DNA from: Octopus vulgaris
Taxonomy: Eukaryota
Reading direction: 5' to 3'
Length of the DNA stretch: 64,000 nt
Assembly (NCBI GenBank): GCA_951406725.2
Contig: OX597822.1
Coordinates: 34,224,001 to 34,288,000 of the forward strand
Part shown: piece by piece, positions 125 through 40,370 of the stretch
Numbering within the stretch: position 1 is the stretch's first letter
Layout of the letters: each line of letters begins with the position of its first letter
The notes under the pieces: generated by a model
Told to the model about the DNA's origin: nothing
Databases searched by the model: none
What the model saw: the letters and a program-made list of their open reading frames with translations, nothing else
Position numbers and translations under genes: made by a program

Positions 125-186
<62 letters not shown>

Positions 187-454
187 AATTAGGGATAATT
201 ATCAATTACACCAAGTAGATTTCGGCATGTAAAAGCCCCATTCGAGGAAAATTTAAGTAATACTAAGTAATTAAGGGTTTAGCAACGAATTGCCTCACCA
301 ACACACCGAATTTAGAAATAGCAGTCAAAGAGATATAGCTATTCATTCTACTAAAAGGGGGATCTCAGTAAAAACACAGCACTTAAAAGGCAAACACAGA
401 CAGGTAAGAAAGAAAGAATGAAATGACGACAATCCATCATGCAATTTTAAGTTA

Positions 455-546
455 CCTACGGACGTACGTTTCGAGATCAAGTTTTAGGATAGCATAAGAA
501 TTAGAAAATTCTACTTTACCCAGACTTCTTCTCTCATCGGCGCAGG
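455..546 (-). ncRNA. Type I hammerhead ribozyme (588-bp unit, left arm); second copy at 1043-1134
   Basis: Reverse complement reads CCTGCG-CCGATGA-GAGA...TCTC-GAA-ACGTACGT-C-CGTAGG. Confidence 0.82.
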
Positions 547-1751
547 ATACTACAATTATGAATAATTGTATATTAAATTTTGAGATACTAGAATGCGTCA
601 TCTCAACTCAGTGTCAGAGCGAGCCAAAGCATGACCAGTACCACGAAATTCAAAGTTTGAATGAAAGTTTGTGTCACCAGCCCCTTCCACCCGCGTGTAG
701 CCAAGACAAAATGCTGTGGTCATTCACTGGGATAAAATATGGTTATCAGTAATAATAAAAGGGTGAAATTAATTAATTAGGGATAATTATCAATTACACC
801 AAGTAGATTTCGGCATGTAAAAGCCCCATTCGAGGAAAATTTAAGTAATACTAAGTAATTAAGGGTTTAGCAACGAATTGCCTCACCAACACACCGAATT
901 TAGAAATAGCAGTCAAAGAGATATAGCTATTCATTCTACTAAAAGGGGGATCTCAGTAAAAACACAGCACTTAAAAGGCAAACACAGACAGGTAAGAAAG
1001 AAAGAATGAAATGACGGCAATCCATCATGCAATTTTAAGTTACCTACGGACGTACGTTTCGAGATCAAGTTTTAGGATAGCATAAGAATTAGAAAATTCT
1101 ACTTTACCCAGACTTCTTCTCTCATCGGCGCAGGATACTACAATTATGAAAAAACACAGCACTTAAAAGGCAAACACAGACAGGTAAGAAAGAAAGTAGA
1201 ATTTTCTAATTCTTATGCTATCCTAAAACTTGATCTCGAAACGTACGTCCGTAGGTAACTTAAAATTGCACGATGGATTGCCGTCATTTCATTCTTTCTT
1301 TCTTACCTGTCTGTGTTTGCCTTTTAAGTGCTGTGTTTTTACTGAGATCCCCCTTTTAGTAGAACGAATAGCTATATCTCTTTGACTGCTATTTCTAAAT
1401 TCGGTGTGTTGGTGAGGCAATTCGTTGCTAAACCCTTAATTACTTAGTATTACTTAAATTTTCCTCGAATGGGGCTTTTACATGCCGAAATCTACTTGGT
1501 GTAATTGATAATTATCCCTAATTAATTAATTTCACCCTTTTATTATTACTGATAACCATATTTTATCCCATTGAATGACCACAGCATTTTGTCTTGGCTA
1601 CACGCGGGTGGAAGGGGCTGGTGACACAAACTTTCAATCAAACTTTGAATTTCGTGGTACTGGTCATGCTTTGGCTCGCTCTGACACTGAGTTGAGATGA
1701 CGCATTCTAGTATCTCAAAATTTAATATACAATTATTCATAATTGTAGTAT

Positions 1752-1843
1752 CCTGCGCCGATGAGAGAAGAAGTCTGGGTAAAGTAGAATTTTCTAATTC
1801 TTATGCTATCCTAAAACTTGATCTCGAAACGTACGTCCGTAGG
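1752..1843 (+). ncRNA. Type I hammerhead ribozyme (588-bp unit); further copies start at 2341, 2929, 3518, 4106, 4694, 5283, 5871, 6460, 7049
   Basis: Stem I CCTGCG/CGTAGG, core CCGATGA (U4C variant of CUGANGA), stem II GAGA/TCTC enclosing a long hairpin (AGAATT-TTCT-AATTCT), GAA, palindromic stem III ACGTACGT, GUC triplet. Predicted cut after 1837. Confidence 0.85.
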
Positions 1844-4800
1844 TAACTTAAAATTGCATGATGGATTGCCGTCATTTCATTCTTTCTTTCTTACCTGTCT
1901 GTGTTTGCCTTTTAAGTGCTGTGTTTTTACTGAGATCCCCCTTTTAGTAGAATGAATAGCTATATCTCTTTGACTGCTATTTCTAAATTCGGTGTGTTGG
2001 TGAGGCAATTCGTTGCTAAACCCTTAATTACTTAGTATTACTTAAATTTTCCTCGAATGGGGCTTTTACATGCCGAAATCTACTTGGTGTAATTGATAAT
2101 TATCCCTAATTAATTAATTTCACCCTTTTATTATTACTGATAACCATATTTTATCCCAGTGAATGACCACAGCATTTTGTCTTGGCTACACGCGGGTGGA
2201 AGGGGGCTGGTGACACAAACTTTCATTCAAACTTTGAATTTCGTGGTACTGGTCATGCTTTGGCTCGCTCTGACACTGAGTTGAGATGACGCATTCTAGT
2301 ATCTCAAAATTTAATATACAATTATTCATAATTGTAGTATCCTGCGCCGATGAGAGAAGAAGTCTGGGTAAAGTAGAATTTTCTAATTCTTATGCTATCC
2401 TAAAACTTGATCTCGAAACGTACGTCCGTAGGTAACTTAAAATTGCATGATGGATTGCCGTCATTTCATTCTTTCTTTCTTACCTGTCTGTGTTTGCCTT
2501 TAAGTGCTGTGTTTTTACTGAGATCCCCCTTTTAGTAGAACGAATAGCTATATCTCTTTGACTGCTATTTCTAAATTCGGTGTGTTGGTGAGGCAATTCG
2601 TTGCTAAACCCTTAATTACTTAGTATTACTTAAATTTTCCTCGAATGGGGCTTTTACATGCCGAAATCTACTTGGTGTAATTGATAATTATCCCTAATTA
2701 ATTAATTTCACCCTTTTATTATTACTGATAACCATATTTTATCCCAGTGAATGACCACAGCATTTTGTCTTGGCTACACGCGGGTGGAAGGGGGCTGGTG
2801 ACACAAACTTTCATTCAAACTTTGAATTTCGTGGTACTGGTCATGCTTTGGCTCGCTCTGACACTGAGTTGAGATGACGCATTCTAGTATCTCAAAATTT
2901 AATATACAATTATTCATAATTGTAGTATCCTGCGCCGATGAGAGAAGAAGTCTGGGTAAAGTAGAATTTTCTAATTCTTATGCTATCCTAAAACTTGATC
3001 TCGAAACGTACGTCCGTAGGTAACTTAAAATTGCATGATGGATTGCCGTCATTTCATTCTTTCTTTCTTACCTGTCTGTGTTTGCCTTTTAAGTGCTGTG
3101 TTTTTACTGAGATCCCCCTTTTAGTAGAACGAATAGCTATATCTCTTTGACTGCTATTTCTAAATTCGGTGTGTTGGTGAGGCAATTCGTTGCTAAACCC
3201 TTAATTACTTAGTATTACTTAAATTTTCCTCGAATGGGGCTTTTACATGCCGAAATCTACTTGGTGTAATTGATAATTATCCCTAATTAATTAATTTCAC
3301 CCTTTTATTATTACTGATAACCATATTTTATCCCAGTGAATGACCACAGCATTTTGTCTTGGCTACACGCGGGTGGAAGGGGGCTGGTGACACAAACTTT
3401 CATTCAAACTTTGAATTTCGTGGTACTGGTCATGCTTTGGCTCGCTCTGACACTGAGTTGAGATGACGCATTCTAGTATCTCAAAATTTAATATACAATT
3501 ATTCATAATTGTAGTATCCTGCGCCGATGAGAGAAGAAGTCTGGGTAAAGTAGAATTTTCTAATTCTTATGCTATCCTAAAACTTGATCTCGAAACGTAC
3601 GTCCGTAGGTAACTTAAAATTGCATGATGGATTGCCGTCATTTCATTCTTTCTTTCTTACCTGTCTGTGTTTGCCTTTTAAGTGCTGTGTTTTTACTGAG
3701 ATCCCCCTTTTAGTAGAACGAATAGCTATATCTCTTTGACTGCTATTTCTAAATTCGGTGTGTTGGTGAGGCAATTCGTTGCTAAACCCTTAATTACTTA
3801 GTATTACTTAAATTTTCCTCGAATGGGGCTTTTACATGCCGAAATCTACTTGGTGTAATTGATAATTATCCCTAATTAATTAATTTCACCCTTTATTATT
3901 ACTGATAACCATATTTTATCCCAGTGAATGACCACAGCATTTTGTCTTGGCTACACGCGGGTGGAAGGGGGCTGGTGACACAAACTTTCATTCAAACTTT
4001 GAATTTCGTGGTACTGGTCATGCTTTGGCTCGCTCTGACACTGAGTTGAGATGACGCATTCTAGTATCTCAAAATTTAATATACAATTATTCATAATTGT
4101 AGTATCCTGCGCCGATGAGAGAAGAAGTTGGGTAAAGTAGAATTTTCTAATTCTTATGCTATCCTAAAACTTGATCTCGAAACGTACGTCCGTAGGTAAC
4201 TTAAAATTGCATGATGGATTGCCGTCATTTCATTCTTTCTTTCTTACCTGTCTGTGTTTGCCTTTTAAGTGCTGTGTTTTTACTGAGATCCCCCTTTTAG
4301 TAGAACGAATAGCTATATCTCTTTGACTGCTATTTCTAAATTCGGTGTGTTGGTGAGGCAATTCGTTGCTAAACCCTTAATTACTTAGTATTACTTAAAT
4401 TTTCCTCGAATGGGGCTTTTACATGCCGAAATCTACTTGGTGTAATTGATAATTATCCCTAATTAATTAATTTCACCCTTTTATTATTACTGATAACCAT
4501 ATTTTATCCCAGTGAATGACCACAGCATTTTGTCTTGGCTACACGCGGGTGGAAGGGGGCTGGTGACACAAACTTTCATTCAAACTTTGAATTTCGTGGT
4601 ACTGGTCATGCTTTGGCTCGCTCTGACACTGAGTTGAGATGACGCATTCTAGTATCTCAAAATTTAATATACAATTATTCATAATTGTAGTATCCTGCGC
4701 CGATGAGAGAAGAAGTCTGGGTAAAGTAGAATTTTCTAATTCTTATGCTATCCTAAAACTTGATCTCGAAACGTACGTCCGTAGGTAACTTAAAATTGCA

Positions 4801-7339
4801 TGATGGATTGCCGTCATTTCATTCTTTCTTTCTTACCTGTCTGTGTTTGCCTTTTAAGTGCTGTGTTTTTACTGAGATCCCCCTTTTAGTAGAACGAATA
4901 GCTATATCTCTTTGACTGCTATTTCTAAATTCGGTGTGTTGGTGAGGCAATTCGTTGCTAAACCCTTAATTACTTAGTATTACTTAAATTTTCCTCGAAT
5001 GGGGCTTTTACATGCCGAAATCTACTTGGTGTAATTGATAATTATCCCTAATTAATTAATTTCACCCTTTTATTATTACTGATAACCATATTTTATCCCA
5101 GTGAATGACCACAGCATTTTGTCTTGGCTACACGCGGGTGGAAGGGGGCTGGTGACACAAACTTTCATTCAAACTTTGAATTTCGTGGTACTGGTCATGC
5201 TTTGGCTCGCTCTGACACTGAGTTGAGATGACGCATTCTAGTATCTCAAAATTTAATATACAATTATTCATAATTGTAGTATCCTGCGCCGATGAGAGAA
5301 GAAGTCTGGGTAAAGTAGAATTTTCTAATTCTTATGCTATCCTAAAACTTGATCTCGAAACGTACGTCCGTAGGTAACTTAAAATTGCATGATGGATTGC
5401 CGTCATTTCATTCTTTCTTTCTTACCTGTCTGTGTTTGCCTTTTAAGTGCTGTGTTTTTACTGAGATCCCCCTTTTAGTAGAACGAATAGCTATATCTCT
5501 TTGACTGCTATTTCTAAATTCGGTGTGTTGGTGAGGCAATTCGTTGCTAAACCCTTAATTACTTAGTATTACTTAAATTTTCCTCGAATGGGGCTTTTAC
5601 ATGCCGAAATCTACTTGGTGTAATTGATAATTATCCCTAATTAATTAATTTCACCCTTTTATTATTACTGATAACCATATTTTATCCCAGTGAATGACCA
5701 CAGCATTTTGTCTTGGCTACACGCGGGTGGAAGGGGCTGGTGACACAAACTTTCATTCAAACTTTGAATTTCGTGGTACTGGTCATGCTTTGGCTCGCTC
5801 TGACACTGAGTTGAGATGACGCATTCTAGTATCTCAAAATTTAATATACAATTATTCATAATTGTAGTATCCTGCGCCGATGAGAGAAGAAGTCTGGGTA
5901 AAGTAGAATTTTCTAATTCTTATGCTATCCTAAAACTTGATCTCGAAACGTACGTCCGTAGGTAACTTAAAATTGCATGATGGATTGCCGTCATTTCATT
6001 CTTTCTTTCTTACCTGTCTGTGTTTGCCTTTTAAGTGCTGTGTTTTTACTGAGATCCCCCTTTTAGTAGAACGAATAGCTATATCTCTTTGACTGCTATT
6101 TCTAAATTCGGTGTGTTGGTGAGGCAATTCGTTGCTAAACCCTTAATTACTTAGTATTACTTAAATTTTCCTCGAATGGGGCTTTTACATGCCGAAATCT
6201 ACTTGGTGTAATTGATAATTATCCCTAATTAATTAATTTCACCCTTTTATTATTACTGATAACCATATTTTATCCCAGTGAATGACCACAGCATTTTGTC
6301 TTGGCTACACGCGGGTGGAAGGGGGCTGGTGACACAAACTTTCATTCAAACTTTGAATTTCGTGGTACTGGTCATGCTTTGGCTCGCTCTGACACTGAGT
6401 TGAGATGACGCATTCTAGTATCTCAAAATTTAATATACAATTATTCATAATTGTAGTATCCTGCGCCGATGAGAGAAGAAGTCTGGGTAAAGTAGAATTT
6501 TCTAATTCTTATGCTATCCTAAAACTTGATCTCGAAACGTACGTCCGTAGGTAACTTAAAATTGCATGATGGATTGCCGTCATTTCATTCTTTCTTTCTT
6601 ACCTGTCTGTGTTTGCCTTTTAAGTGCTGTGTTTTTACTGAGATCCCCCTTTTAGTAGAATGAATAGCTATATCTCTTTGACTGCTATTTCTAAATTCGG
6701 TGTGTTGGTGAGGCAATTCGTTGCTAAACCCTTAATTACTTAGTATTACTTAAATTTTCCTCGAATGGGGCTTTTACATGCCGAAATCTACTTGGTGTAA
6801 TTGATAATTATCCCTAATTAATTAATTTCACCCTTTTATTATTACTGATAACCATATTTTATCCCAGTGAATGACCACAGCATTTTGTCTTGGCTACACG
6901 CGGGTGGAAGGGGGCTGGTGACACAAACTTTCATTCAAACTTTGAATTTCGTGGTACTGGTCATGCTTTGGCTCGCTCTGACACTGAGTTGAGATGACGC
7001 ATTCTAGTATCTCAAAATTTAATATACAATTATTCATAATTGTAGTATCCTGCGCCGATGAGAGAAGAAGTCTGGGTAAAGTAGAATTTTCTAATTCTTA
7101 TGCTATCCTAAAACTTGATCTCGAAACGTACGTCCGTAGGTAACTTAAAATTGCATGATGGATTGCCGTCATTTCATTCTTTCTTTCTTACCTGTCTGTG
7201 TTTGCCTTTTAAGTGCTGTGTTTTTACTGAGATCCCCCTTTTAGTAGAATGAATAGCTATATCTCTTTGACTGCTATTTCTAAATTCGGTGTGTTGGTGA
7301 GGCAATTCGTTGCTAAACCCTTAATTACTTAGTATTACT

Positions 7340-7340
<1 letters not shown>

Positions 7341-7390
<50 letters not shown>

Positions 7391-7477
7391 GTATATATAT
7401 ATATGTATATATATATATATGTATATATATATATGTATATATATATATGTATATATATATATGTATATATGTATATA

Positions 7478-7533
<56 letters not shown>

Positions 7534-7546
7534 TGTATATATATGT

Positions 7547-7598
<52 letters not shown>
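7341..7598. repeat. (TA)n/(TATG) microsatellite
   Basis: Direct inspection. Similar tracts occur throughout, e.g. 126-183, 9068-9128, 27305-27443, 38122-38755, 40600-40868. Confidence 0.98.
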
Positions 7599-7599
<1 letters not shown>

Positions 7600-14491: not shown

Positions 14492-14525
<34 letters not shown>

Positions 14526-15676
14526 ATTTTTTCAGTAGAATGGGCTTAAAAATCGTTTTTGATGACGATATGACGAAGGCCAACTTTTTAGATATTACGC
14601 TTAACTTACACTGTGACTCTTACTTCCCATATCGTAAACCGTTGACCAATCTTAAGTACATTAGCAAATTTAGTAATCATCCTGGAGCAATTACTAAAAA
14701 CTTAGTTAAGAATATTTCATTTAGATTATCTAAATTATTTGCTAATGTTGATATTTTCAATAATAACGCTGAATTCTACATTAATTCTGCTCAGTCTAAT
14801 TGTAAATTCAATAATGTAGATAAGATTTCTAGTCGTAAAAAAATTATTGATAACAAACATAACTTACGCACCGATACAAAGCGAATGAAGGCAGATAACC
14901 CTTATTTAATCCCCTATTATCGATCTAAAAGTAAATATAACACCTTCAAAAGTAATTACGCTATGAATACTAGTAAAAATATTTGGATAATAATTCCTTA
15001 CGGGAGACAAATTAAATCTAATCTTCCACTGCTGTTTCGTCAAGCTATTGCTAGGAATTTTCCTAACAATTCTAGATATTACTCTATTATCAATTCACAT
15101 AAGGTTAGGATAGGTTTTTCAAACACAAAAAATCTCTTGCAAATTATCTCTTCACATAATAACAAACTGTTAAATATTAATACATTTACTAATACTAACT
15201 TTAATTTAGCTAATACCATCCAACCCTCTAGAAATATTAATAACAAGGTTATTGTATCTGAAGTCAATTCCAATAGAATTAAGTTTATGTCAAGTAACTC
15301 TAAGATTAAAAATTCTATATACCAGTGTATAATCAGTACTCGTAATAAAGTACGATTTTACATTGGAAGCACATCGTTAGAGTTATCTAAAAGAATTTCT
15401 ATCCATTACTCAACATTTAGGAGTAGAAATAAACGTAATAGTACCGGTCTCAGAAAACTGATTTGGGATTTAAAAGACCACAATGAACAATTTCATTTAG
15501 AATGGTTGATTCTCTCAAATTCGATACCATATGACAAAGGCAAGGAATTCTGTCTTTTCTGCAATTCTGAGCTATTTTTCATTATTTTTTCTAAAAATAC
15601 TCTAGTAAACACGGTTATAGAGCGAGCATACAGATGTAAGCATTGGCAAAAACATACATTTAGTGCATATAAGTAG
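14489..15676 (+). CDS. 5'-truncated Penelope-like retroelement ORF: RT C-terminus/thumb plus GIY-YIG endonuclease
   Basis: NFLDITLNL...YFPYRKP...YISKFSNHP...RLSKL (PLE RT thumb), NSIYQC...FYIGST...KRISIH (GIY-YIG), C-terminal CLFCNSE...CKH. The annotated ATG lies in the flanking Tc1 end/(TA)n, so real element sequence starts at about 14521 and the RT catalytic core is absent. Confidence 0.9.
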
Positions 15677-16165
15677 TCTCTATCATTATATATAATTTAA
15701 ACTTTAATTTCCTTTATATTTAACATTCACTATTGGTATCCCTACTCTTTCTGTTAGCTACTTATGACATATCATATAAGGTTTTTTTAAACAATATTAA
15801 TAGCGTTCTGTCTATCGCTATACAAATCCATCATTTTTTGCTAAAATGTCTTATTGACGAGTTTCGCTTTTTTCACTTTCCTGAGGAGAAGATTGCATTG
15901 TTTATACCATTTTTTCTTTTGAATAGTATCAGTGGAATTTTCGAAACATGTGTCGAAAGTAAAAAATATTTGATTACACCTGCGTTAAACTCCATATATT
16001 TATTCATATATTGTTCAAAATATTCCACGTAAACACGAAGTTTCTACCTTTATAAACAAGGAGTTACAACATCTTTACTTGTGGGATTTTTGCTACCCTG
16101 GTAACTATTTATTTGTTTTTTCCGTGTTAATTATTAACAAAGTAAAAATACACTCATCTATTTAT
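15677..16165 (+). mobile_element. 3' UTR / pseudo-LTR of the Penelope-like element
   Basis: AT-rich sequence between the ORF stop and the next (TA)n run. Contains the HHR at 15875-15960, as established for PLE pLTRs. Confidence 0.7.
15875..15960 (+). ncRNA. Type I hammerhead ribozyme in PLE 3' end
   Basis: ACTTTC-CTGAGGA-GAAGATT.CATTG...CAGTG.AATTTTC-GAA-ACATGTGT-C-GAAAGT. Predicted cut after 15954. Confidence 0.88.
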
Positions 16166-16189
16166 ATAAATATATATATATACATACTA

Positions 16190-16534: not shown

Positions 16535-17275
16535 TACCTATTTCTTTACTACCACAAGGGGCTAAACACAGAGGGGACAAACAAGGATAGACAGACGGAT
16601 TTAGTTGATTATATCAACCCCAGTGCGTAACTGGTACTTAATTTATCGACTCCGAAAGGATGAAAGGCAAAATCGACTTCGGCGGAATTTGAACTCAGAC
16701 GAAATACCGCTTAGCATTTCGCCCAGCGTGCTAACGTTTCTGCCAGCTCACCGCCTTTTCCAAGTTGCAATACCTATTTCTTTACTACTCACAACGGGCT
16801 AAACATAGAGGGGACAAACAAGGACAGACAAACGGATTAAGTCGATTATATCATCCCCAATGCGTAACTGGTACTTAATTTATCGACCCCGAAAGGATGA
16901 AAGGCAAAGTCGTCCTTGGCGGAATTTGAACTCAGAATGTAACGGCAGACGAAATACCGCTAAGCATTTCGTCCGGCGTGCTAACGTTTCTGCCAGCTCG
17001 CCGCCTTTTCCAAGTTGCAATACCTATTTCTTTATTACCCACAAGGGGCTAAACACAGAGGGGACAAACAAGGACAGACATAGGTATTAAGTCGATTACA
17101 TCGACCCCAGTGCGTAACTGGTACTTAATTTATCGACCCCGAAAGGATGAAAGGCAAAGTCGACCTCGGCGGAATTTGAAGTCAGAACGTAACGGCAGAC
17201 GAAATACCGCTAAGCATTTCGCCCGGCGTGCTAACGTTTCTGCCAGCTCGCCGCCTTTTCCAAGTTGCAATACCG
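16535..17275 (-). mobile_element. Three head-to-tail family B SINE copies (~250-bp period)
   Basis: Head GGCGG(C/T)GAGCTGGCAGAAACGTTAGCACG on -. The identical spacer TTTTCCAAGTTGCAATAC follows each copy. Confidence 0.85.
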
Positions 17276-39621: not shown

Positions 39622-40370
39622 ATAAATAAATGAAAAGAATGGAGTCGAACGAAGATTTTATCAAAATACCTTTACTTTCGACATATGTTTCGAAGACTGC
39701 ATATTCTTAATTCCGAAGGAATGAAGGTTGCATTATGCCGTCTTCTCATCAGGAAATACAAGGAACCTCTATCAGCCTCAAGACGAACAAAAGCTTCTTA
39801 CCGTCTGCCTACATGGTTTCCACAGTCATAATGAGTATTTATTTAAAATAATCCGTTATAAGCAATGACGTCAAAATGGGTTGGAAGGAGGGAGTTTTAA
39901 AAAAATAGGAAGTATGTATGCTGTATGTATGGGGATTGACGGGTGTATGTTTTTGTTAATGAGTTTGAGTGTTTGTGTGTGTGTATGAGTGTGTGTATAT
40001 AACTGCATCTGCGTCTAAATACCTTTACTTTCGACATATGTTTCGAAGACTGCATATTCTTAATTCCGAAGGAATGAAGGTTGCATTATGCCGTCTTCTC
40101 ATCAGGAAATACAAGGAACCTCTATCAGCCTCAAGACGAACAAAAGCTTCTTACCGTCTGCCTACATGGTTTCCACAGTCATAATGAGTATTTATTTAAA
40201 ATAATCCGTTATAAGCAATGACGTCAAAATGGGTTGGAAGGAGGGAGTTTTAAAAAAATAGGAAGTATGTATGCTGTATGTATGGGGATTGACGGGTGTA
40301 TGTTTTTGTTAATGAGTTTGAGTGTTTGTGTCTGTGTATGAGTGTGTGTATATAATTGCATCTGTGTCTA
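39622..40370 (-). mobile_element. ~353-bp-unit HHR element, ~2 tandem units
   Basis: CCTTTACTTTCGACATATG at 39669 and 40022, with essentially identical copies. Abuts (TA)n. Confidence 0.88.
39669..39763 (-). ncRNA. Type I hammerhead ribozyme (353-bp unit); second copy at 40022-40116
   Basis: CCTTGTATTTC-CTGATGA-GAAGAC.GCATA...TATGC.GTCTTC-GAA-ACATATGT-C-GAAAGTAAAGG. Fully canonical core. Confidence 0.92.

What the first reader, a model, noticed from the sequence alone, without database searches (positions are those of the whole stretch)
1196..7340. Ten near-identical ribozyme units in tandem: possible rolling-circle reverse transcript of a ~588-nt circular RNA
Seen: ~10.4 head-to-tail units, nearly identical. 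The array starts and ends at different mid-unit positions unrelated to the cleavage site. A read-through transcript would be cut into exact monomers. Inference: an RT going repeatedly round a circular template in a single insertion explains the permuted ends and the homogeneity. This is far more units than the usual partial-tandem pLTR.
Basis: partly seen in the sequence, partly recalled or inferred. Interest (0 to 1): 0.8.

Follow-up and report, generated by a model that had tools for sequence, protein, structure and literature searches.

The report
Two-armed Penelope-type hammerhead retrozyme array
This is the longest copy found of a dispersed, non-coding jumping element made of 589-base repeats that each carry a predicted self-cutting RNA motif; it was likely pasted into an AT-repeat by a Penelope-type enzyme copying a likely circular RNA from both DNA strands and then likely lengthened in place, which makes it a clean new example of a known class rather than a new phenomenon.

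Summary
The array is real: 10.45 head-to-tail units of 587-589 nt (1193-7341), 99.2-100% identical, each with a type I hammerhead motif that covaries with a 68%-identical sister family. It belongs to a young dispersed family (280 exact ribozyme 28-mers): a non-LTR retrozyme, a described class for which circular-RNA templating by Penelope-like (PLE) RTs is already the published model. The ends are not arbitrary: 101 of 115 outer 3' ends fall at two sites, about 200 and 300 nt past the cleavage site, and two-armed insertions pair one of each (38 of 39). The sister family and an autonomous RT+GIY-YIG PLE here follow the same rule. A seamless, single-haplotype template is supported: no excess of stops at the cleavage site, and private alleles fixed across both arms. 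One-shot copying of all ten units is not favoured: one position is C in 8 copies and T in 5, with all terminal copies T, a pattern like local duplication seen at other loci. No cleavage, RNA or long-read test was possible. Known class, modest interest.

The parts
126..181 (.). (TA)n target, left side
   Evidence: (TA x29)
182..1153 (-). Inverted arm, 1.65 units, from about q485 to an outer end at q274-279 (possibly q297 with a 17-nt skip; only 6 AT-rich bases support that)
455..546 (-). Type I hammerhead motif, predicted cleavage between 461 and 460
1043..1134 (-). Type I hammerhead motif, predicted cleavage between 1049 and 1048
1150..1196 (-). 47-nt inverted piece (q91 to q45) at the head-to-head junction; 4-nt microhomology with the forward arm at 1193-1196
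1193..7341 (+). Forward arm, 10.45 units, q533 to q207-210; monomers 1250-1837, 1838-2426, 2427-3014, 3015-3603, 3604-4190, 4191-4779, 4780-5368, 5369-5956, 5957-6545, 6546-7134; units 2 and 10 identical, units 4, 6, 7, 9 identical
1752..1843 (+). First of ten complete type I hammerhead motifs (core C3 at 1758, 2347, 2935, 3524, 4112, 4700, 5289, 5877, 6466, 7055): 6-bp stem I, CCGAUGA core (U4C), long stem II, GAAAC-GUAC-GUC with palindromic loop III; predicted cut after 1837 and equivalents
1365..1365 (+). q116, the only substitution shared between copies: C at 1365, 2541, 3130, 3719, 4306, 4895, 5484, 6072; T at 1953, 6661, 7250 and on the - strand at 345 and 933; family state G
7244..7341 (+). 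Terminal part of the conserved structured domain (q110-q290 in full units), ending in the AU-rich unpaired loop that holds initiation site A (q197-212); site B (q291-317) follows the last hairpin in full units
7342..7599 (.). (TA)n/(TATG)n target, right side

Best explanation
This is a two-armed, non-coding insertion of 589-nt hammerhead-motif repeats in a (TA)n tract, likely a non-LTR retrozyme copied in trans by a Penelope-like RT/GIY-YIG protein from a likely circular monomer RNA and then likely lengthened by local tandem duplication. Inferred steps: the endonuclease nicks both strands of (TA)n. Each 3' end primes cDNA inside the RNA at one of two fixed AU-rich sites, A (q197-212) or B (q291-317), one site per strand, probably from one RNP. 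Both cDNAs run through the ribozyme junction, here for 1.65 units and a few units, and join head to head by microhomology. Later a T116C unit was amplified in place to give 10.45 units. Shown: anatomy, end phases, A/B pairing, haplotype uniformity within loci, no excess of stops at the cleavage site. Inferred: cleavage, circularity, the enzyme, and the order of events. Class assignment about 0.9; circular template about 0.65; part of the length gained after insertion about 0.55.
For: Dispersed young family: 280 exact 28-mers, control 0. 63 of 70 longest arms end in TA-rich flank; 101 of 115 outer 3' ends lie in windows covering 52 of 589 nt; of 45 two-armed loci 32 are A/B, 1 B/B, 0 A/A and 12 have an end elsewhere. 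In 12 loci fetched after the windows were set, 18 of 20 ends are A or B and 6 of 8 two-armed loci are A/B, the other 2 being A plus elsewhere; combined 38 of 39, p=7e-11 against 0.5. The same pairing holds in the sister family and in an autonomous 778-aa RT+GIY-YIG family with the same U4C core: 5 of 6 two-armed loci pair +52-63 with +204-207. This fits PLE biochemistry: two internal initiation sites, both strands cut and extended, predicted dimer (PMC11167929). Single continuous template: 43 private alleles fixed in all copies of their locus, 22 of them across both arms; only 10 of 809 cells mixed at polymorphic columns; stops at the cleavage site 3.4% vs 2.6% expected. No long source with this haplotype in the assembly: 10 of 13 matches are the window itself, the rest lie in loci of <=1.6 units. 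Local expansion: all 4 terminal copies are T (p=0.007 if T and C were dealt at random). In L057 the middle units share derived alleles absent from its tail and inverted arm. In L197 one single-unit duplication explains both of its partial alleles. Next longest arm is 6.27 units.
Against: Two different non-family bases at the same nucleotide need two hits at one site, and this is the only such column in 70 loci. No autonomous element sharing sequence with the unit was found. The U4C core lowers activity in vitro (PMC3088659), and 8 of 9 predicted Xenopus retrozyme dimers did not cleave (bioRxiv 2026.07.22.740005), so circles may be rare. Some loci mix family haplotypes (L059, L061, L193), so templates are not always one monomer. 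A 5'-end cluster at q44-47 (6 of 125; corrected p about 0.04) could mark the start of a linear transcript. Loci were picked from best hits and are biased to long and two-armed copies.
Confidence: 0.5

Rival explanations
1. One-shot rolling circle: all 12 units were written in a single event from one circular RNA whose G116 was damaged or modified, so that each of 13 passes read it as T or C and never as G.
For: q116 is non-G in 13 of 13 copies, with two transversions, and is the only column with two derived alleles in 70 loci. G is kept in the family and the sister family. The order TTCCCCCCCTC/TT has no period. Units 2-10 carry no other substitution. G>T plus G>C is the expected read-out of oxidised, abasic or N1-methylated G (recalled, not from a call). 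No long source in the assembly.
Against: All four terminal copies are T (p=0.007). A miscoding lesion should slow an RT (recalled), yet this is the longest arm found. Local duplication is evident at other long loci (L057, L197). q116 also varies elsewhere: 12 non-G copies at 10 loci, against 3 for q117.
Confidence: 0.17
2. Linear template: a weakly cleaving ribozyme leaves long uncut read-through RNAs from a source array, and the PLE RT copied ten units of such an RNA, T/C pattern included.
For: U4C core and minimal stem III. Uncut RNA was the dominant substrate for an anole PLE in vitro (PMC11167929). 5' stops cluster at q44-47, and the window's short piece stops at q45. Haplotype-mixed arms exist (L193, L061). 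No excess of stops at the cleavage site fits an uncut RNA as well as a circle.
Against: No source of 10 or more units with this haplotype in the assembly (40 of 2095 candidates scored). Linear copying can only shorten arrays, so it still needs another amplifier. Many different private haplotypes are fixed across whole loci.
Confidence: 0.18
3. Assembly artefact: the true array is shorter, or the unit differences come from consensus errors next to a 924-bp inverted repeat.
For: Several unit differences are single-base losses, mostly in homopolymers. Unit 1, which faces the inverted arm, holds 3 of the array's 4 singleton substitutions; at two of them no laid contig of four runs has the window's letter.
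Against: The 7.2-kb insertion sits between unique flanks in a 227-contig, 2.8-Gb assembly. Six distinguishable unit types. Arrays of 4-6 units assemble at other loci. The runs laid may come from other individuals.
Confidence: 0.1
4. Template jumping: the RT copies cut linear monomers and jumps end to end to build the tandem.
For: Would explain occasional haplotype switches (L193, L059).
Against: No excess of stops at q1; both alleles of polymorphic columns meet in only 10 of 809 cells; the haplotype switch in L193 falls mid-unit.
Confidence: 0.05

Closest known systems
Metazoan non-LTR retrozymes (Cervera and de la Pena 2020, PMC7229834; Li et al., bioRxiv 10.64898/2026.07.22.740005)
   Same: Non-coding tandem units, each with a type I hammerhead; GC below 50%; dispersed; co-occur with PLEs; published model is circRNA copied into tandem cDNA; arrays of 62 to 300 units and units of 51-972 bp are reported.
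   Different: 589 nt is longer than the 170-400 nt invertebrate circles tested; long stem II and U4C core; here the ends, two-arm structure and target are resolved. Expression as a circle is not shown for this family.
EN+ Penelope-like elements: partial tandem or inverted pLTR with a 'tail' at one end (PMC8557442, PMC3846280) and Anolis Poseidon PAc biochemistry (PMC11167929)
   Same: (TA)n targets, 5' truncation, inverted 5' copy, two internal initiation sites, extension present at one end only, minimal hammerhead with palindromic loop III.
   Different: No ORF; the two sites are about 100 nt apart (30-40 nt in described PLEs); both arms can be several units long; no sequence match to any autonomous PLE sampled.
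Newt/axolotl satellite-type hammerhead repeats (as described in PMC7229834)
   Same: Weak helix III with palindromic tetraloop, expected to cleave as dimers; monomeric and multimeric RNAs.
   Different: Unrelated sequence, 330-350 bp units, far higher copy number.
L1 twin priming (recalled, no call)
   Same: 5' inversion joined by microhomology.
   Different: Here the inverted arm's outer end is a fixed family site and does not abut the forward arm's 5' end.

Membership tests
non-LTR retrozyme | Tandem repeats with at least two consecutive units bearing a complete type I hammerhead motif | tested here: met
   10 complete motifs on +, 2 on -; stem I 100% paired with 2 double changes against the sister family (two families, so about one independent contrast). 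No Rfam match.
non-LTR retrozyme | No protein coding; no LTR structure | tested here: met
   Longest stop-to-stop frame 84 aa in 1800-3100; none of the 82 family loci mapped runs from the unit into a shared ORF as far as seen. PBS and PPT were not searched for separately.
non-LTR retrozyme | Dispersed mobile copies at unrelated sites | tested here: met
   280 exact 28-mers, control 0; 97-100% identical full-length copies on many chromosomes.
non-LTR retrozyme | Self-cleavage of the transcript | not testable with these tools
   Stem I pairs with probability 0.93-0.99 in the circular monomer, but the core is U4C and stem III is minimal.
non-LTR retrozyme | Accumulates as linear and circular monomer RNA | tested here: inconclusive
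   Only assembled contigs of runs not on record as RNA were available; they cannot show ends, strand or circularity.
PLE-mobilised (non-autonomous PLE) | PLE-type insertion anatomy: AT-rich target, 5' truncation, inverted copy, extension at one end only | tested here: met
   same rule in an autonomous PLE of this genome.
PLE-mobilised (non-autonomous PLE) | Sequence homology to the pLTR of an autonomous PLE | tested here: inconclusive
   No link between the unit and an ORF in 30+10+20+7 PLE loci. Unit-like hits beside L098/L158, L152 and L155 look like separate insertions in (TA)n. Only part of the PLE families was sampled (150 of 6136 candidates scored).
autonomous EN+ PLE | RT plus GIY-YIG ORF between pLTRs | tested here: not met
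   No ORF in the unit.
viroid-like ambisense circle | Ribozyme on both polarities of the unit | tested here: not met
   The motif scan finds one hammerhead per unit on one polarity; - strand hits are the inverted arm. Other ribozyme classes were tested only through Rfam.

The most novel reading that the evidence does not exclude
The whole 12-unit insertion is a fossil of one reaction: two RT subunits of a PLE dimer, primed from opposite DNA strands at sites A and B, chased each other round a single circular RNA carrying one miscoding guanine, which was read 13 times and never as G. That would be direct genomic evidence for rolling-circle reverse transcription in an animal germline and for dimeric two-site initiation as the origin of PLE tails and inversions.
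Probability: 0.12. Interest if true: 0.75.

Novelty: new member of a known kind. Interest (0 to 1): 0.35.

Why it matters
The class and the circular-template model are published, so the array itself is ordinary. The useful part is the family as a test bed for two open points in PLE biology: how the tandem/inverted structure and the one-sided tail arise, and whether circles are the real templates. The near-strict A/B pairing in three families of one genome (38 of 39 here) turns the known 'tail at one end' into a testable rule of one initiation site per DNA strand. Private alleles fixed across both arms give a sequence-only argument for one template per insertion. I found no such count in print in six searches of the open library, which lacks most subscription papers.

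Tried and rejected
Rfam: no match at gathering score in the window; only chance-level matches at E<=10. ORF scan of the unit: nothing. Search for an autonomous partner with shared sequence: none among GIY-YIG loci, the 781-aa RT+GIY-YIG family or the 778-aa family; the sister family is also non-coding as far as seen (output partly cut). Sequencing runs: no RNA holder listed. Contigs of four runs (two DNA?, two RNA? by guess) cover the unit and one guessed-RNA contig crosses the cleavage site, but contigs cannot show ends, strand or circularity; no joint matching this locus's junction was listed, and 2539 pieces were not shown. So expression, copy number and the empty site remain untested. Multimeric-circle reading of q116: rejected, the order has no period; also rejected for L057, whose tail and inverted arm lack the periodic alleles; still possible for L056, L035 and L055. 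Independent CpG decay as the source of T116: rejected, since none of the unit's other CpGs (16 counted per unit) is changed in any window copy. Quasi-palindrome templating of C116: not supported; G116 pairs with C146 in family monomers and is unpaired in the two-family consensus fold. q116 as a general hot spot: 10 loci against 3 for q117, suggestive only. Covariation in the A/B domain is weak: 1 of 48 pairs with a double change. The closing pair of stem II is broken in the sister family. Two look-ups of earlier scan findings returned nothing.

Full report
Observation. The array is there. Eleven GAAAC-GTAC-GTC cores on the + strand delimit ten monomers of 587-589 nt, 99.15-100% identical to the monomer 1838-2426, and the arm runs 10.45 units from 1193 to about 7341. 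TRF missed it only because its period limit is 500. An inverted arm of 1.65 units lies at 182-1153, a 47-nt inverted piece at 1150-1196 joins the arms with a 4-nt microhomology, and (TA)n tracts bound both ends. Below, q1 is the first base after the predicted cut (window 1838).

Ribozyme. Rfam finds nothing. The motif is still a clear type I hammerhead: 6-bp stem I, core CCGAUGA, a long stem II, and GAAAC-GUAC-GUC with a palindromic loop III. Stem I forms with probability 0.93-0.99 in the circular monomer, and the linear monomer folds better than 100 of 100 shuffles (z -4.35). A non-coding sister family, about 68% identical over a unit, mostly has the canonical CUGAUGA core. Across 3 family and 5 sister copies stem I is 100% paired with two double changes and stem II has two, but stem II's closing pair is broken in the sister. 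Two families give about one independent contrast. U4C lowers activity in vitro yet supports viroid infectivity (PMC3088659, passages). Weak-helix-III hammerheads of axolotl cleave well only as dimers (PMC7229834, parts 2-4 of 6 read). Clean cutting into monomers therefore cannot be assumed. The unit has no ORF.

Family. The genome (2.8 Gb, 227 contigs) holds 280 exact copies of a 28-mer across the cleavage site, control 0, and full-length units 97-100% identical on many chromosomes. I mapped the window plus 69 loci: 39 best hits, 10 picked for a non-G q116, and 20 from the first 100 places. This set is biased to long and two-armed copies. 63 of 70 longest arms end in TA-rich flank. 101 of 115 outer 3' ends fall in two windows, A (q195-215) and B (q290-320), which cover 52 of 589 positions. 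Of 45 two-armed loci, 32 are A/B, 1 is B/B, none is A/A, and 12 have an end elsewhere, the window among them (210 and 274-279). The windows were drawn from these data, so I checked 12 loci fetched afterwards: 18 of 20 ends are A or B, and 6 of 8 two-armed loci are A/B. Combined, 38 of 39 classifiable loci are A/B (p=7e-11 against 0.5). Among 30 sister-family loci selected on a B end, 16 show an inverted arm ending at q187-201 (two of them one duplicated insertion), one more is A/B the other way round, one is B/B and one other. In the two-family consensus fold, A lies in an AU-rich unpaired loop and B just after the last hairpin; covariation there is weak. 5' ends are spread round the unit.

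Who moves it. The window itself holds a 5'-truncated RT+GIY-YIG element with a 3' hammerhead (14525-16170). Its family has 778-aa open frames, a CCGAAGA (U4C) core in young copies, a long stem II and (TA)n targets. In 5 of its 6 two-armed loci one arm ends 52-63 nt and the other 204-207 nt past the cut; the sixth is +12/+204 (7 loci fetched). A second family of 781 aa with many intact copies also ends in (TA)n. Neither shares sequence with the unit, so the partner is not named, but the end rule is that of PLE machinery here. It fits PMC11167929 (parts 1-2 of 4 read): an anole PLE nicks and extends both strands of AT-rich DNA, starts internally at two adjacent RNA sites, is predicted to be a dimer, and used uncut RNA in vitro. 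[quoted passage not shown] I infer one site per DNA strand, probably from one RNP.

Template. Only 6 of 119 arms stop within q580-q11, against 171 crossings (3.4% vs 2.6% expected), so cut linear monomers are not the usual template. 43 private alleles are fixed in every copy of their locus, 22 of them across both arms in 15 loci, and only 10 of 809 cells are mixed at polymorphic columns. By the logic of rolling-circle sequencing (PMC11331410, passages), changes present in every repeat were in the template. A 42-mer marking the window's haplotype occurs 13 times: 10 in the window and 3 in loci of 1.6 units or less. A four-unit query finds no arm longer than 6.27 units among 40 of 2095 candidates scored. 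A circular monomer is the simplest reading. Uncut RNA from a homogenised source array is not excluded, and three things favour some linear or mixed templates: haplotype-mixed loci (L059, L061, L193), a cluster of 6 of 125 5' ends at q44-47 (corrected p about 0.04) beside initiator-like motifs (consensus recalled), and the weak core.

One event or several. Apart from single-base losses and four singleton substitutions (three in unit 1), the copies differ only at q116: in order of synthesis TTCCCCCCCTC in the forward arm and TT in the inverted arm, where the family has G. It is the only column with two derived alleles in 70 loci. A single clean circle predicts uniformity, a multimeric circle predicts a period, and neither is seen. 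A damaged or modified G on one template read 13 times would give this pair of transversions (chemistry recalled) and avoids two hits at one base. Against it, all four terminal copies are T (p=0.007), a lesion should shorten arms, and other long loci show duplication in place: L057's middle units share alleles absent from its tail and inverted arm, and one single-unit duplication explains both partial alleles of L197. One T-to-C change, one two-unit duplication and expansion of one C unit reproduce the window's order. I put local expansion at 0.5, a linear multimer at 0.18, the one-shot circle at 0.17, an assembly artefact at 0.1 and template jumping at 0.05.

Comparison with what is known. Tandem type I hammerhead repeats of animals are non-LTR retrozymes. 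PMC7229834 shows circles in coral, mussel and axolotl, reports arrays up to 62-mers, and proposes RT copying of circles into tandem cDNA by PLEs. The preprint 10.64898/2026.07.22.740005 (parts 1-3 of 5 read; its supplements not seen) reports units of 51-972 bp, arrays up to 180 and 300 units, homology to pLTRs in Xenopus, local amplification as a route to tandems, and cleavage in only 1 of 9 dimers tested. PMC5680766 was seen as passages. The supplements of these papers were not read and may list this family or similar end patterns. The element meets the sequence-level criteria of the class; cleavage and circular RNA are untested; pLTR homology was not found in the part of the PLE families sampled.

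Verdict. A real feature, larger than reported, and a new member of a known kind. What may be new is the near-strict pairing of two initiation sites across three families and the two-allele column; six literature searches showed no such count, in a library that lacks most subscription papers. Interest 0.35.

Noticed in passing
window 14525-16170 (+): 5'-truncated Penelope-like element in (TA)n: RT C-terminus plus GIY-YIG frame ending at 15676, hammerhead at 15881, 3' end about 204 nt past the cut. Its family is very abundant (23,450 first-look candidates), with 778-aa open frames that Pfam does not recognise at E<=0.1; clade not assigned.
   Followed up: partly
window 39664-40370 (-): Second hammerhead repeat: two 353-nt units, 99% identical, canonical CUGAUGA core at 40105 and 39752; its ribozyme region is about 80% like the hammerhead downstream of the GIY-YIG frame in L158.
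   Followed up: partly
L161-L190 (e.g. L183, L186, L181): Sister retrozyme family, about 595-nt unit, 68% identical, mostly canonical core, same two end sites; 1738 first-look candidates. Further relatives at 79-89% lie in L079 and L152.
   Followed up: partly
L121-L130: Young, intact 781-aa RT+GIY-YIG family with a CxxxxCxxC linker (Neptune-like by the motif described in PMC8557442), copies about 93-98% identical, ending in (TA)n; no canonical hammerhead found by my scan.
   Followed up: partly
L070:4581-7420 (about 0.6-3.4 kb left of the window start): Another RT frame (813 aa, Pfam RVT_1) with a frameshifted GIY-YIG-like C-terminus; separate from the array.
   Followed up: no
L056, L057, L035, L055: Private alleles recur with period 3 (L056, L057) or 2 (L035, L055) along the arms. 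In L056 a tandem three-unit duplication does not fit the 4.7-unit length, leaving a trimeric circle or gene conversion.
   Followed up: partly
L192, L193: L192 has a private allele in 3 non-contiguous copies across both arms; L193 switches between two family haplotypes mid-unit.
   Followed up: no
family-wide, q44-47 (window 1150-1196 piece ends at q45): Cluster of arm 5' ends just downstream of two initiator-like motifs; a possible transcription start.
   Followed up: partly
window 16696-17274: 250-nt repeat, 2.3 copies, 93% identical, matching an abundant dispersed SINE-like repeat found at many places in the window.
   Followed up: no
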